The notes below the pieces were generated by a model that saw nothing but the letters and a program-made list of their open reading frames with translations, was not told where the DNA came from and ran no database searches. 11,077 nucleotides of DNA, from IMG/VR virus record IMGVR_UViG_2703718845_000001; one strand, given 5' to 3'. Of this stretch, positions 6,630-9,300 are shown in pieces. Position numbers and translations under genes: made by a program. This DNA comes from a virus. Taxonomy: Duplodnaviria; Heunggongvirae; Uroviricota; Caudoviricetes. Within the stretch, counting starts at the first letter, position 1. Each line of letters opens with the position of its first letter.

Positions 6630-6714
6630 CCGCCTTTTTTATGGGTCCTCCCGGTGGAGTGGTCTGCCACGGGGCGGGAGCGTCGCGGAAAAAGGCTGGT
6701 TTTTGCATTTTCAT
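6630..6714. repeat. cos-like core copy A (cosQ/cosN-like, lacking the cosB-like segment); direct repeat of 9165-9249
   Basis: 85 bp with 3 mismatches to 9165-9249; contains acgggtcctcccggtgg...cacggggcgggagcg, resembling the lambda cos junction (ACGGGTCC...GTTACG/GGGCGGCGACCT, from memory). Confidence 0.6.
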
Positions 6715-6901
6715 GGCGGCGGCAGCATGTGTGATAATTTATTGATAATTAAAAGTTATTTCTGTTTTCACCTGTACAATATTTTTTTCTCCCTGTCATT
6801 AGACCAGTTTGCAATTAATTGAAATATATAAATAAATCTGTTTTTCACCTGCCAGGTGGAGTTGCCTGTGTCAAAACGTGTTCAGATGGCGGGATATTTA
6901 T

Positions 6902-6924
6902 GCCGGATTTTCTCCGGCTTTTTT
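6902..6924 (+). terminator. Rho-independent terminator-like hairpin (+ strand)
   Basis: gccgga-ttttct-ccggc followed by tttttt. Confidence 0.5.
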
Positions 6925-7026
6925 GTGTCTGAATCTCATTAATCTATTTTTATGATAGAAATATGTTTATCTACCACTTTTATCGATCAATAATGTGCAC
7001 AGTTTAGTCAGTAAGAGGAAGTTACT

Positions 7027-7233
7027 GTGAGTTGTATTAATGACCTGAACACGGGCGATATCAGGGGTGGTTCCGTTCATCTGGATGCGCAGACCGTTAT
7101 GCGCCTTAAGCAGTACAGGATCGACCATATAAATCATCATCCTGACAAACCATTACCAGGTGTGGCGCAGATTGTCAGACATGCCGTAAACACCTGGCTT
7201 AATCAGAATGGTTTTGCATCGGTGGGGGAATAA
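7027..7233 (+). CDS. Small hypothetical protein (68 aa), translationally coupled to the protease-capsid gene
   Basis: GTG start with AAGAGGA 7 nt upstream; stop overlaps the downstream ATG (TAATG); segment VHLDAQTVMRLKQY...GVAQIVRHAVNTWL could be RHH-like; function not assignable. Confidence 0.45.
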   Translation: MSCINDLNTGDIRGGSVHLDAQTVMRLKQYRIDHINHHPDKPLPGVAQIVRHAVNTWLNQNGFASVGE

Positions 7234-9146
7234 TGAATCGCTGGTACACCATTAAGGCGGCGGATGTTCGTGGAGCGGCGGATATATCTATCTATGAGGA
7301 GATTGGCGGCTTCGGTGTTACTGCAAAGCAGTTCGCGGAAGACCTGAAAGCCCTTGGCGATGTTTCACATATCAATCTGAGGATCCATTCACCAGGTGGT
7401 GATGTGTTTGAAGGCATCGCCATCTATAACCTGCTACGGAATCATCCGGCAGACATTACGGTTTATATCGATGGTGTTGCGGCTTCAATGGCTTCGGTGG
7501 TCGCAATGGCTGGCGATCGTGTAGTGATGCCGGAGAACGCCATGATGATGATCCATAAACCGTGGGGGATCTCTGGCGGAAATGCTGGCGATATGCGTGA
7601 TTATGCTGATTTGCTGGATAAGGTGGAAACCGTGTTAATCCCTGCTTATGCCAGAAAAACGGGCAAATCAGCACAGGAAATTACCGCCATGCTGGAGGAT
7701 GAAACCTGGATGGATGGGAAAGAATGCCTTAAGCACGGTTTTGCTGATGAATTGTTGCCATCCGTCAGAGCAATGGCGCGAATTGAATCGAAACGCACAG
7801 GAGATTTTTTACATATGCCGGAAACCATTAAAGGAATGATTACACCGCCACAGGGAGCGGCAAATATTGCTGGTAATGAACAGAAGCGCATCAATGGAAT
7901 AAGTGAAGTGTTTAGCCTGTTCGGCAGTCGTTACGACGGGATCAAAATGGCGTGTCTGGAAGATGCATCATGTACACCGGAAATGGCCCGTGAAAAGCTG
8001 TTGAACGAGCTGGGGCGCGAGTCCACGCCATCCAATAAAAATACCCCGCCTCATATCTATGCCGGAAACGGAAACATAACAGGTGATGCAATTCGTCAGG
8101 GGCTTTATTCCCGTCTTGGGTATGAACGCCCTGAACGAGGCAACCCTTACGCGATGATGAGCCTTTTTGAAATGGCCCAGGCATCACTGGTTGATCGTGG
8201 TATCACTGTGAGCGGTTTTATTAATCGCTCGCAGGTTGTTAATGCGGCTTTTACACACAGCAGCAGTGATTTTTCTCATATTCTGGCTGGTGGGGCTGAA
8301 AAATCTGTACTGAAAGGCTGGCAGGACAGCGGCGAAACGTTCCAGAAATGGACGCGTACCGGTTCGCTTTCAAACTTTCATGAAGCAAAGCGCGTTGGTC
8401 TGAATGGTTTTTCAAAGCTGGATAAAGTACCGGAAGGTGCGGAATATAAATACATCACCACCAGCGATAAAGGTGTACCTATTGCGCTGGCCACGTACGG
8501 GAATATTTTTTCCGTTACCCGTCAGGCCATTATCAACGATGACCTGACCCAGTTAACTACAATCCCCATGGCGATGGGACGCGCAGCCGCCAGAACAGTT
8601 GGCAATCTGGTTTATCTCCTGTTAACCAGCAACGGCAAGTTTACGGATGGTAAAGCGTTATTCCATGCCGATCATAAAAATCTTATTGCGAAGGATATGG
8701 ACATGGTGGGGCTTGATGAAGCCCGTAAGCGGATGCGCCTCCAGGAGGATGCTAACGGCGACTCCCTGAATATTACCCCTGCTTTTGTTCTGGTCCCTGC
8801 CGCGCTGGAATCTGCCGCGCGTCGCGCCATTTTGTCATCGTCATCAGTCTTTCCGGTTGGTGATGAGAGCACTATCAATCAGAACCCCGGCATCATTAAC
8901 GTGGTGAAAGATATGGCAGAAGTAATTGTTGAGCCACGTCTTGATAAGGCCAATAGCAAGGAATGGTATGTAGCCGCAGCTAAGGGGATGGACACAATAG
9001 AAGTCGCTTATCTTGATGGGATGGATACGCCATATCTTGAGGAGCAGGTGGGCTTTACTGTTGATGGTGTCGCCTGGAAAGTACGCATAGATGCAGGTGT
9101 CGCGGCCCTCGATTATCGCGGATTACTGAAATCGAGTGGAGCATGA
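7233..9146 (+). CDS. ClpP-family prohead serine protease fused to a major-capsid-protein-like domain (capsid precursor polyprotein)
   Basis: N-terminal about 190 aa carry ClpP/S14 motifs GVAASMAS (Ser) and MMIHKPWG (His), compare E. coli ClpP GQAASMG and MIHQPLGG; the C-terminal about 400 aa is large, A/G/V-rich and ends in a glycine/beta-rich tail, consistent with an HK97-fold capsid protein but not verified; cos site and terminator follow. Confidence 0.85.
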   Translation: MNRWYTIKAADVRGAADISIYEEIGGFGVTAKQFAEDLKALGDVSHINLRIHSPGGDVFEGIAIYNLLRNHPADITVYIDGVAASMASVVAMAGDRVVMPENAMMMIHKPWGISGGNAGDMRDYADLLDKVETVLIPAYARKTGKSAQEITAMLEDETWMDGKECLKHGFADELLPSVRAMARIESKRTGDFLHMPETIKGMITPPQGAANIAGNEQKRINGISEVFSLFGSRYDGIKMACLEDASCTPEMAREKLLNELGRESTPSNKNTPPHIYAGNGNITGDAIRQGLYSRLGYERPERGNPYAMMSLFEMAQASLVDRGITVSGFINRSQVVNAAFTHSSSDFSHILAGGAEKSVLKGWQDSGETFQKWTRTGSLSNFHEAKRVGLNGFSKLDKVPEGAEYKYITTSDKGVPIALATYGNIFSVTRQAIINDDLTQLTTIPMAMGRAAARTVGNLVYLLLTSNGKFTDGKALFHADHKNLIAKDMDMVGLDEARKRMRLQEDANGDSLNITPAFVLVPAALESAARRAILSSSSVFPVGDESTINQNPGIINVVKDMAEVIVEPRLDKANSKEWYVAAAKGMDTIEVAYLDGMDTPYLEEQVGFTVDGVAWKVRIDAGVAALDYRGLLKSSGA

Positions 9147-9152
9147 CAACAA

Positions 9153-9175
9153 GGGCGGCGACAGCCGCCTTTTTT
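9153..9175 (+). terminator. Rho-independent terminator after the protease-capsid gene
   Basis: ggcggc-gaca-gccgcc followed by tttttt, 7 nt after the stop codon. Confidence 0.6.
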
Positions 9176-9300
9176 ACGGGTCCTCCCGGTGGAGTGGTCT
9201 GCCACGGGGCGGGAGCGGCGCGGAAAAAGGCTAGTTTTTGCATTTTCATTCGTCATCATCATCTTTCTATGATATTGAATTTTAAGTGTTTTTATTTTTA
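9165..9300. other. Lambda-like cos site (cosQ/cosN/cosB-like), copy B
   Basis: acgggtcctcccggtggagtggtctgccacg gggcgggagcgg... aligns with the lambda cos junction; downstream cgtcatcatc...aagtgtttttattttta resembles lambda cosB (cgtcataacttaatgtttttatttaaaa); sits about 100 bp upstream of the Nu1-like gene, as in lambda. Confidence 0.65.

What the first reader, a model, noticed from the sequence alone, without database searches (positions are those of the whole stretch)
6630..9249. 85-bp cos-core direct repeat (about 96% identical) bracketing the capsid module
6630-6714 and 9165-9249 are near-identical (3 mismatches) and in the same orientation. Both carry the cosQ/cosN-like sequence acgggtcctcccggtgg...cacggggcgggagcg, but only the downstream copy continues into a cosB-like segment and the Nu1-like gene. 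Two cosN-like sites 2.5 kb apart could give alternative packaging termination points (about 8.3 kb versus 10.9 kb units, an inference from lambda cos logic), could drive recombinational loss or gain of the capsid cassette, or could simply mark modular acquisition.
Basis: partly seen in the sequence, partly recalled or inferred. Interest (0 to 1): 0.75.

Follow-up and report, generated by a model that had tools for sequence, protein, structure and literature searches.

The report
Two phage packaging sites in a satellite
This 10.9-kb E. coli phage satellite carries two complete, same-direction copies of the lambda-type DNA-packaging signal (cos) around its capsid gene, one a near copy of a real phage's site and one its own, which probably lets it be packaged by two kinds of helper phage.

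Summary
The repeat is real: 6630-6714 and 9165-9249 differ at 3 of 85 positions, with 0 matches expected by chance. It extends to 94 nt at 93%.

The window is a PICI-type satellite (integrase, primase/ori, protease-capsid fusion, small-terminase homologue) flanked by att repeats. The shared core aligns base-for-base with lambda cosQ, cosN and the spacer before cosB. Two phage records start exactly at the predicted cohesive end (6672).

The upstream copy also runs into a full cosB. Positions 6643-6875 are 93-95% identical to the cos of cdtI/Tritos/HannyBb phages, including the first codons of their terS, which is then truncated. The downstream copy has a different, satellite-specific cosB followed by the satellite's own TerS.

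Two cos sites in such satellites are already published for EcCICFT073, and why they occur was left open. There the sites are inverted around rppA. I find that its cos2 is likewise a 93% copy of a real phage's cos.

About 163 of 184 related satellites in 5,426 E. coli genomes have both sites. Two independent natural variants lack the capsid cassette and carry one chimeric cos.

Best reading: dual packaging specificity. This is a new variant of a known feature, of moderate interest.

The parts
1..138 (+). attL-side direct repeat of the element. It pairs with 10916-11053 and defines a 10,915-bp unit.
   Evidence: D1, 138 nt, 95%. A tRNA fragment lies at 11011-11077 (-).
6244..6481 (.). Iteron-rich replication origin (GGTGAACAG repeats and inverted repeats) downstream of the primase gene (4413-6245).
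   Evidence: D7, D10, D13, I1, I2; primase domains; PICI ori position per PMC6092414.
6619..6640 (+). Terminator-type hairpin plus T6 immediately upstream of the upstream cos. In this window the stem is weakened by one mismatch. Relatives, including the flank of EcCICFT073 cos1, have a perfect GCCGGA-loop-TCCGGC stem.
6643..6714 (+). Upstream cos core: cosQ GGGTCCT at 6643-6649, predicted cohesive end GGGCGGGAGCGT at 6672-6683, and I2-like spacer at 6684-6714 (bp 13-43 of the left end).
   Evidence: The cdtI and Tritos records start at the base equivalent to 6672.
6715..6855 (+). cosB of type A (cdtI/Tritos/HannyBb class). It is 95-96% identical and ungapped to 31 phage sites, and 98.8-100% identical in the 60 best-matching E. 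coli genome records, which are satellite-context copies.
6856..6876 (+). Remnant of the type A phage terS gene: the start codon is changed from ATG to GTG, and about 7 codons remain before homology ends.
   Evidence: alignment; (cdtI terS starts at bp 185)
6902..6924 (+). Hairpin terminator GCCGGATTTTCTCCGGC plus T6 that closes the cos-A module. In L094 a single GCCGGA-GAAA-TCCGGC hairpin and T-run stand in place of 6644-6912, and the flanks are collinear with the window.
7027..7233 (+). Conserved 68-aa ORF (phrog_4934, function unknown) preceding the capsid gene.
7233..9146 (+). ClpP-like prohead protease / major capsid protein fusion gene (637 aa). It belongs to a satellite-specific lineage; the best phage homologue is 57% identical at the amino-acid level.
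9154..9175 (+). Hairpin GGCGGCGACAGCCGCC plus T6: the terminator of the capsid gene, immediately upstream of the downstream cos.
9178..9249 (+). Downstream cos core: cosQ at 9178-9184, predicted cohesive end GGGCGGGAGCGG at 9207-9218, and I2-like spacer at 9219-9249.
9250..9402 (+). Satellite-specific cosB (begins TCGTCATCATCA). It is about 76-82% identical to the cosB of phi458/mEp460-class (type B) phages.
9403..9888 (+). Satellite small-terminase homologue (DUF1441, phrog_141). It is 67% identical to phi458 TerS. Similarity to cdtI TerS is limited to 48% over a 75-aa C-terminal stretch.

Best explanation
The window is an integrated E. coli phage-inducible chromosomal island (PICI-type satellite). 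It carries two complete, co-oriented lambda-type cos sites.

Both sites share the part of cos that the large terminase subunit acts on: cosQ, cosN and the spacer up to bp 43. That shared part is why they appear as a direct repeat. They differ from bp 44 onward, which is where TerS-specific cosB (R3 and beyond) begins.

The upstream site (6643-6855) is a near copy of the cos of cdtI/Tritos/HannyBb-type phages with their terS deleted. A helper of that class should therefore start packaging the satellite with its own TerS, as with a cosmid. The downstream site (9178-9402) has a satellite-specific cosB next to the satellite's own TerS homologue. That TerS would recruit the helper's TerL to the satellite, most plausibly with phi458/mEp460-class helpers, in whose terL gene two relatives examined (L004/L137, L021) are embedded.

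The net effect would be two packaging specificities in one element, that is, a wider helper range. Because termination needs only the shared core, either site can also end a packaging run. A run that starts at the downstream site and ends at the upstream one would rejoin into a chimeric cos lacking the capsid cassette. Homologous recombination between the two cores would give the same product.

Shown here: the anatomy, the homologies, the distribution and the deletion variants. Inferred: which protein uses which site, and that both sites are active in this element.
For: 1. The core is homologous to lambda cosQ/cosN with identical spacing, and phage record termini fall at the predicted nick.
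2. Upstream cos plus cosB: 92.7-94.6% identical to HannyBb, Tritos and cdtI over 204-233 nt. Within cosB, 141 nt are 95-96% identical to 31 phage sites with no indel.
3. In 104 phage-type cos sites from IMG/VR and GenBank, the same core is joined to either type A cosB with cdtI-type TerS or type B cosB with phi458-type TerS. The two TerS are 42% identical and the TerL proteins 88% identical. The two phage classes diverge within one base of the right edge of the window's repeat.
4. That edge is bp 43, just before the R3 position (bp 48-65), where spacing to cosN is critical (PMC9026076).
5. The adjacent capsid gene is only 57% identical at the amino-acid level (66-71% at the nucleotide level) to any phage homologue, whereas the non-coding cos-A is 95-96% identical. 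The cos is therefore either constrained or renewed from phages.
6. The terS deletion starts about 7 codons into the gene, so all of cosB is kept.
7. Precedent: both cos sites of EcCICFT073 promote phage-mediated transfer. Only cos1 responds to the island's specificity factor. Deleting cos2 raises transfer by a non-cognate helper, so cos2 carries a cost (PMC6092414, PMC6739421).
8. EcCICFT073 cos2 is itself 93% identical over bp -32..+147 to the cos/cosB of the lambdoid phage PhiR12_1.
9. In another satellite lineage (L029/L046), the upstream slot holds a 95% copy of the type B phage cos, ahead of a lambda E/D-type capsid module.
10. Both sites are present in about 163 of 184 cassette-bearing satellites among 5,426 genomes.
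Against: - There is no direct packaging or end-mapping data for this element.
- About 11% of relatives lack the upstream cos (L094, L078, second element of L026), so it is dispensable.
- The upstream copy carries G at bp +27 where all 60 distinct phage cores have A. Both copies carry T at -9 where phages have C. These changes might weaken the sites.
- Satellite-bearing genomes are not clearly enriched for a co-resident type A prophage: 11 of 59 have a second cosB-A locus, against roughly 13% background, and some of those second loci are second satellites.
- The two helper-embedded relatives examined sit in type B prophages, not type A.
- High identity to phage cos could also reflect a recent capture rather than selection.
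Confidence: 0.55

Rival explanations
1. The upstream cos is an unused relic. A stretch of a phage left arm (cos, terS and onward) was captured, and internal deletions left cos plus a terS stub. It persists by hitch-hiking and has only side effects, namely occasional termination and recombination.
For: - A truncated terS remnant lies directly after cosB-A.
- Capture of helper late genes followed by gene loss has been proposed for these satellites (PMC10111431).
- About 11% of relatives do without it.
- The satellite copy has a G at bp +27 that is never seen in phages.
- In EcCICFT073, cos2 is not needed for transfer by the helpers tested.
Against: - The 141-nt AT-rich non-coding cosB has no indel in the 10 satellite upstream cos sites compared (8 with the window-type terS stub, plus L040 and L117). 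It stays 95-96% identical to phages, while the neighbouring capsid gene is 57% identical at the amino-acid level.
- The deletion endpoint preserves all of cosB.
- The same kind of phage-copy cos recurs in unrelated satellite backbones with other cos types.
- A costly element (EcCICFT073 cos2 lowers lambda-mediated transfer) would be expected to be lost if useless.
Confidence: 0.22
2. The upstream copy serves chiefly as an alternative termination point. It would give 8.38-kb versus 10.92-kb units, or a finer choice of multimer length, and so tune packaged DNA length to the capsid.
For: - Lambda termination needs only cosQ, cosN and I2, and both copies have them (established lambda biology).
- Distances from 9207 are 8.38, 10.92, 19.30, 21.83, 30.21, 32.75, 41.13 and 43.66 kb. 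A 42-47-kb helper head would therefore reach the upstream site (41.1 kb) first.
- The chimeric-cos deletion variants L006 and L027 are what rejoining of such a molecule would produce.
Against: - This does not explain why a full, phage-identical cosB is kept.
- Whole multiples of 10.9 kb (43.7 kb) already fit the helper head.
- Frequent termination at the upstream site would shed the capsid cassette often. Yet only 1 of 5,426 genomes, plus 1 IMG/VR contig, shows that product.
- Both variants are equally explained by homologous recombination. The crossover interval of -8..+27 is not significantly restricted.
Confidence: 0.1
3. The repeat mainly marks a recombination module. The two cores act as portable homology that lets capsid cassettes or cos types be swapped among satellites and phages, and the upstream site has no packaging role.
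For: - The slots hold different cos types and different capsid modules in different satellites.
- Cargo insertions vary on either side: SSB, a tail-assembly fragment, a 237-aa ORF.
- Gene-conversion tracts between the two copies are visible. The spacer is identical within the window, within L001 and within L021 but differs between elements.
Against: - Recombination explains the mosaicism but not the retention of the specificity-determining cosB.
- Concerted evolution is not statistically supported (permutation p = 0.14, n = 8).
Confidence: 0.08
4. The repeat is the duplicated 5' end of a small minus-strand gene (ORFs 6511-6714 and 9055-9249) or of a small RNA.
For: - Both minus-strand ORFs start at the ATG at the right edge of the repeat.
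- phrog_35283 matches residues 1-36 of the first ORF.
- Some phage records annotate such an ORF across cos.
Against: - The ORFs diverge completely outside the core.
- The second ORF lies antisense inside the end of the capsid gene.
- The ORF spans the cosN cut site.
- There is no Rfam match.
- The sequence is fully explained as cos.
Confidence: 0.02

Closest known systems
[quoted passage not shown] 2018, PMC6092414; 2019, PMC6739421)
   Same: - Same element type and gene order (int, pri, ori, capsid gene, cos, packaging-specificity gene, conserved ~95-aa ORF).
- Two cos sites with the same cosQ/cosN but different cosB.
- One site lies next to the island's own specificity factor.
- By my analysis, the other site is a ~93-96% copy of a real phage cos in both elements.
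   Different: - In CFT073 the two sites are inverted and flank rppA (7559+ and 8309- in L005). Here they are direct repeats 2,535 bp apart and flank the capsid gene.
- The cohesive end differs (GGGCGGGAGCGK versus GGGCGGCGACCT).
- The specificity factor here is a near full-length TerS homologue (DUF1441), with no BLASTP similarity to RppA.
- The capsid gene is a ClpP-MCP fusion rather than lambda E plus D.
Bacteriophage lambda cos (cosQ-cosN-I2-cosB; Feiss and colleagues; reviewed in PMC9026076)
   Same: cosQ heptamer, spacing to the nick, a GC-rich 12-nt cohesive end, the flanking CGCGG, a spacer before R3, and a cosB followed by the small-terminase gene about 185-197 bp from the end.
   Different: - The cohesive end differs at 4 of 12 positions in the upstream copy and 5 of 12 in the downstream copy.
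- The cosB sequences are unrelated to lambda R3/R2/R1.
- There are two sites per genome.
- No R or IHF sites were defined here.
cos-type SaPIs (SaPIbov5, and SaPIbov4 with two putative cos sites), which carry the helper phage's cos
   Same: A satellite is packaged because it carries a copy of the helper's cos. A capsid-protein homologue is encoded by the island (from PMC6092414).
   Different: They occur in Gram-positive hosts with an unrelated cos and an HNH-dependent terminase. No satellite TerS is paired with a second cos.
pac-type SaPIs that encode their own TerS
   Same: A satellite-encoded small terminase would redirect the helper's large terminase to a satellite-specific site. This is the proposed role of the downstream cos plus DUF1441.
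   Different: Those use headful (pac) packaging, not cos. The TerS families are unrelated.
Helper-embedded PICIs (Mageeney et al. 2023, PMC10111431)
   Same: Close relatives of this element (L004/L137, L021, L040, L115) are inserted in the terL gene of lambdoid prophages.
   Different: The window's own copy appears to sit next to a tRNA gene, not inside a prophage gene.

Membership tests
Lambda-type cos site (each of the two copies) | A cosQ heptamer GGGTCCT at the lambda distance upstream of the top-strand nick. | tested here: met
   6643-6649 and 9178-9184. The alignment to lambda is ungapped from cosQ to bp 43. The heptamer is invariant in 60 distinct phage cores.
Lambda-type cos site (each of the two copies) | A cosN with a 12-nt GC-rich cohesive-end sequence flanked by ACG / CGCGG. 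| tested here: met
   ACG|GGGCGGGAGCGT|CGCGG at 6672-6683, and ...GCGG at 9207-9218. The two-fold symmetry is partial (8 of 16 by my count, against 10 of 16 in lambda).
Lambda-type cos site (each of the two copies) | A cosB (TerS-binding segment) starting about bp 48, followed by a small-terminase gene. | tested here: met
   Upstream: cosB 95-96% identical to cdtI-type phages plus a terS stub. Downstream: its own cosB plus an intact TerS homologue. Individual R and IHF sites were not identified.
Lambda-type cos site (each of the two copies) | Cleavage by terminase in vivo or in vitro to give the cohesive ends. | not testable with these tools
   The only indirect support is that the cdtI and Tritos records begin at the homologous base.
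Gram-negative PICI (EcCICFT073-like phage satellite) | About 10-15 kb, flanked by att repeats, with int, primase-replicase plus adjacent ori, unidirectional genes, and no full set of virion or lysis genes. | tested here: met
   The unit is 10,915 bp. It has an integrase, a D5-type primase and iterons. Only a capsid fusion and a TerS are present as late genes. Annotated relatives show the same order.
Gram-negative PICI (EcCICFT073-like phage satellite) | Induction, replication and high-frequency transfer dependent on a helper phage. | not testable with these tools
   One hint only: a 10,790-bp circular 'plasmid' record (NZ_CP148328.1) is the same element in excised form.
Two-cos PICI as described for EcCICFT073 | Two cos sites with the same cosQ/cosN but different cosB in one island. 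| tested here: met
Two-cos PICI as described for EcCICFT073 | The island-specific cos is served by an Rpp protein that heterodimerises with helper TerS. | tested here: not met
   No Rpp is present. The gene next to the downstream cos is a DUF1441 TerS homologue with no similarity to RppA.
Capsid-forming PICI (cf-PICI) | The island encodes the full set of capsid-forming and packaging genes (capsid, portal, connectors, terminase) and takes only tails from the helper. | tested here: not met
   Only a protease-capsid fusion, a 68-aa ORF and a TerS are present. There is no portal, TerL or connector gene.
Helper-embedded PICI | Integration inside a late gene of the helper prophage. | tested here: not met
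   The window ends in a tRNA fragment. Relatives L004/L137 and L021 do meet this criterion.

The most novel reading that the evidence does not exclude
E. coli PICIs may systematically keep a portfolio of packaging signals. One cos would be private to the island and served by its own specificity protein (Rpp or a TerS homologue). One or more further cos sites would be near-exact copies of the cos of particular phage lineages, exchangeable like cassettes in a slot upstream of the capsid module. This would set and widen the range of helper phages. [quoted passage not shown]
Probability: 0.4. Interest if true: 0.65.

Novelty: new variant of a known kind. Interest (0 to 1): 0.5.

Why it matters
Satellites of this kind move virulence and defence genes between E. 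coli strains, and which phages can mobilise them determines how far they spread.

If each cos site matches a different helper terminase class, helper range could be read directly from the sequence. The published puzzle of the second cos site would then have a simple, testable answer.

The work also shows that the direct repeat provides a built-in route for losing the capsid gene. That product is nonetheless rare in genomes, which suggests the satellite's own capsid gene is under selection.

The analysis is computational only, and the packaging roles remain to be tested.

Tried and rejected
- **Recent co-capture of the upstream cos and the capsid gene from one phage.** Rejected in that form. 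The cos is 95-96% identical to phages, but the capsid gene is only 66-71% identical at the nucleotide level to cdtI/phi458 and at best 57% at the amino-acid level to any of 50,697 phage records. The 68-aa ORF has no counterpart in those phages.
- **Concerted evolution of the two cores.** Within-element differences average 6.5 against 7.2 between elements (permutation p = 0.14, n = 8). This is not significant, although single conversion tracts are visible.
- **Whether the deletion junctions point to cos cutting and rejoining rather than homologous recombination.** Both crossovers fall between -8 and +27, which includes cosN. That interval is about half of the homology, so the test cannot decide.
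- **Co-residence of type A prophages with the satellite.** No clear enrichment was found.
- **Spread beyond E. coli.** An exact-pattern scan of species-representative genomes found only 4 single prophage sites, so it was uninformative.
- **R-sequence or IHF-site discovery inside either cosB.** No convincing repeated motif was found.
- **Relation of the TerS homologue to solved structures or to RppA.** No sequence match was found.
- **Known RNA families.** No match in the region.
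Full report
**1. The observation**

The 85-nt sequence at 6630-6714 recurs once in the window, at 9165-9249 on the same strand, with 3 mismatches. None of 200 dinucleotide-preserving shuffles gave any match. The repeat finder extends the pair to 94 nt at 93% (6621-6714 / 9156-9249, spacing 2,535). The extra ~20 nt on the left are two different GC hairpins followed by T-runs, that is, terminators. The truly homologous unit is about 74 nt (6641-6714 / 9176-9249).

**2. 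What the window is**

- A 138-nt direct repeat (1-138 / 10916-11053, 95%) defines a 10,915-bp unit. A tRNA fragment lies at the right end.
- Between the repeats lie a tyrosine integrase, small regulators, a D5-type primase (4413-6245) and an iteron-rich origin (6244-6481).
- These are followed by a 68-aa ORF, a ClpP-protease/major-capsid fusion (7233-9146), a DUF1441 protein (9403-9888) and a conserved 95-aa ORF.
- DUF1441 matches the small-terminase family phrog_141 (E = 6.7e-57). It is 66-71% identical to the TerS of mEp460, phi458 and PhiR47-type lambdoid phages.
- Annotated E. coli relatives have the same order, and one is deposited as a 10,790-bp circular plasmid.

This is a Gram-negative PICI-type phage satellite.

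**3. The repeat is cos**

Aligned with lambda, both copies show the following, with no gap from cosQ to bp 43 of the left end:

- GGGTCCT (cosQ);
- the same spacing to ACG^GGGCGG;
- a 12-nt GC-rich block (GGGCGGGAGCGT or ...GCGG, against lambda GGGCGGCGACCT);
- then CGCGG.

The GenBank records of phages cdtI and Tritos start at the base equivalent to window 6672.

**4.

The upstream copy does not stop at the core.

- Window 6643-6875 is 92.7% identical to phage HannyBb over 233 nt. It is 94.6% and 93.6% identical to Tritos and cdtI over the first 204 nt of their genomes.
- In register, bp 44-184 (141 nt of AT-rich non-coding DNA) is 95-96% identical to 31 phage sites without one indel.
- The homology runs into the first ~7 codons of the phage terS (start ATG changed to GTG at 6856) and then ends.
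- A hairpin terminator follows at 6902-6924.

The downstream copy continues into a different cosB (begins TCGTCATCATCA). That segment is about 76-82% identical to the cosB of phi458/mEp460-type phages, up to the start codon of the satellite TerS.

**5. The same modular logic holds in phages**

I collected 104 phage-type cos sites with this core (60 distinct core sequences) from IMG/VR and GenBank.

- Type A cosB (GGCGGCGGC...) always precedes a cdtI-type TerS.
- Type B cosB (TCGTCATCACCA and variants) always precedes a phi458-type TerS.
- The two TerS are 42% identical, while the TerL proteins are 88% identical.
- The two phage classes diverge within one base of the right edge of the window's repeat.
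- That edge is bp 43. In lambda and N15, the TerS-contacted R3 lies at bp 48-65 and its spacing to cosN is critical (Murialdo and Feiss 2022, PMC9026076).

So the repeat equals the TerL substrate (cosQ, cosN, I2), which in lambda is also what termination needs. What differs between the two copies is the TerS specificity determinant.

**6. What is already known**

Fillol-Salom et al. showed that the model PICI EcCICFT073 has two cos sites with phage-like cosQ/cosN and divergent cosB.

- Both sites promote plasmid transduction.
- cos1 is essential and is recognised by the island's Rpp-TerS complex.
- Deleting cos2 increases transfer by lambda.
[quoted passage not shown]" (PMC6092414, PMC6739421).

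I located those sites in CFT073. cos1 is at 7559(+) and cos2 at 8309(-) of L005. They are inverted and flank rppA, not the capsid genes. The present arrangement therefore differs in three ways: direct orientation, position around the capsid gene, and a TerS homologue rather than an Rpp. I found no later paper in the searchable library that addresses the second site.

**7. Generalisation**

- EcCICFT073 cos2 is 93% identical from bp -32 to +147 to the cos/cosB of phage PhiR12_1, including three CCGGACAT-type repeats. In the phage, this segment lies between the lysis genes and Nu1-A-W-B.
- In another satellite lineage (L029/L046), the site upstream of a lambda E/D-type capsid module is a 95% copy of the type B phage cos. 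The downstream site is PhiR12-like.
- Other satellites carry other combinations, including different cohesive-end sequences and three sites (L026, L104, L040).

A second cos that is a near copy of a real phage cos is therefore a recurrent feature.

**8. Distribution**

Counts below are out of 5,426 complete E. coli genomes.

| Feature | Genomes |
|---|---|
| This capsid cassette (at least 80% of 6940-9150) | 184 |
| Upstream cos in its satellite context (6560-7030) | 163 |
| Type A cosB at any locus, mostly prophages at 90-95% identity | 837 |

About 89% of cassette-bearing satellites therefore have both sites.

Variants without the upstream cos exist. L094 has a single GCCGGA-GAAA-TCCGGC hairpin and T-run in place of 6644-6912. 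This is consistent with loss between the two similar hairpins, or with a state that predates insertion of the cos-A module. In L078 and the second element of L026, the module is replaced by a 237-aa minus-strand ORF.

**9. Loss of the cassette**

A synthetic query joining the left flank of copy 1 to the right flank of copy 2 found one genome (NZ_AP027844.1, L006) with exactly that structure. It sits at the same chromosomal site as a two-cos relative. An independent second case is IMG/VR contig L027.

Each has one chimeric cos that is copy-1-like on the left and copy-2-like on the right. The crossover lies between bp -8 and +27. This fits homologous recombination between the cores. It fits equally well the rejoining of a molecule packaged from the downstream site to the upstream one, and the data cannot separate the two.

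The rarity of this product, despite a built-in route to it, suggests selection for the capsid gene. This is an inference.

**10. Function versus relic**

Arguments for function:

- The non-coding cos-A is 95-96% identical to phages, and 98.8-100% identical in the 60 best-matching E. coli genome records, which are satellite-context copies.
- By contrast, the neighbouring capsid gene has no phage homologue above 57% amino-acid identity.
- The terS deletion spares all of cosB.
- The pattern recurs in unrelated backbones.
- In EcCICFT073 the second site is costly with non-cognate helpers yet is retained.

Arguments against:

- The upstream site is dispensable in 11% of relatives.
- The upstream copy has G at +27 where all phage cores have A.
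- There is no clear co-residence with type A prophages.
- The two embedded relatives I examined sit in type B prophages.

I put dual packaging specificity at 0.55 and a passive relic at about 0.2.

**11. Size logic (inference)**

From 9207, the successive cos cores lie at 8.38, 10.92, 19.30, 21.83, 30.21, 32.75, 41.13 and 43.66 kb. EcCICFT073 is packaged as phage-length DNA (PMC6092414). If that holds here, both sites are skipped until the head is nearly full, and either site could then terminate the run. Whether the satellite's own capsid protein makes small heads is unknown. If it does, the relevant distance would change.

**12. Verdict**

It is a different arrangement of a published feature rather than a new kind of thing.

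The added value is twofold. First, the upstream site is a complete cos of a different phage class. Second, the same is true of the unexplained cos2 of the model island. Together these turn an open question into a direct experiment.

Noticed in passing
L005 (E. coli CFT073, NC_004431.1) 8150-8340, minus strand: cos2 of EcCICFT073, whose role is unexplained in the literature, is 93% identical over about 179 nt to the cos/cosB of lambdoid phage PhiR12_1. The match includes three CCGGACAT-type repeats. It is inverted relative to cos1.
   Followed up: yes
L003 = NZ_CP148328.1, whole record (10,790 bp): A record deposited as a circular plasmid of a clinical E. coli is this same satellite (int to TerS, both cos sites). 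Presumably it is the excised, replicating form captured by the assembly.
   Followed up: partly
window 4-48, 224-268, 10919-10963; also 1-138 / 10916-11053 and 11011-11077(-): A 45-nt motif (TATACC...ACGGTATCCTATAGGTATCCTAGA) occurs three times around the att repeats, possibly as integrase arm sites. The right end overlaps a tRNA gene fragment, so this copy appears to sit at a tRNA gene.
   Followed up: no
window 6684-6698 (bp +27 = 6698) and 6663 / 9198 (bp -9): The upstream copy has G at bp +27 in all 8 satellites aligned in register, whereas 60 of 60 distinct phage cores have A. Both window copies have T at -9 where phages have C. The effect on cos activity is unknown.
   Followed up: partly
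L004 + L137 (NZ_OW968288.1), L021, L040, L115: Close relatives are inserted inside the terL gene of lambdoid prophages (helper-embedded configuration). In L137 and L021 the host prophage has a phi458-type TerS and type B cosB.
   Followed up: partly
L026 (IMG/VR 2690316346_000015): Two satellites lie in tandem. The first has a 60%-identical capsid gene and a cos with a different cohesive-end sequence (GGGCGGGTCGGC). The second lacks the upstream cos.
   Followed up: partly
L104 (IMG/VR): This satellite has three cos sites: type A upstream of the capsid gene, a second with cohesive end GGGCGGCAGACG downstream of it, and an inverted phage type B-like site beyond the 95-aa ORF. The two direct copies share an unusual spacer (GGCCTTACCACG), which suggests gene conversion.
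   Followed up: no
L078 3941-4870 (and the second element of L026): In place of the cos-A module there is an AT-rich segment with a 237-aa minus-strand ORF of unknown function, possibly accessory or defence cargo.
   Followed up: no
window 6511-6714(-) and 9055-9249(-): Two minus-strand ORFs start at the ATG at the right edge of each cos core. The first matches phrog_35283, and similar ORFs are annotated across cos in several phage records. They are probably annotation artefacts, since they span the cut site.
   Followed up: partly
window 7027-7233 and 9885-10172: Two small conserved ORFs of unknown function (phrog_4934, 68 aa; phrog_1561, 95 aa) travel with the capsid gene and the TerS gene respectively. 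The 95-aa ORF is also conserved in EcCICFT073 (73% identical).
   Followed up: no
window 2808-3812: Only the C-terminal ~80 residues of this 334-aa ORF match a phage transcriptional-repressor family (phrog_6196). The GTG-started ORF may be over-extended. The left half of the element (1724-3812) differs from most relatives.
   Followed up: no
L002-L004, L006 versus the window: Cargo insertions sit at fixed points: an SSB gene pair between ori and the upstream cos, and a tail-assembly gene fragment between the capsid gene and the downstream cos. In the latter case the repeat begins exactly at cosQ.
   Followed up: partly
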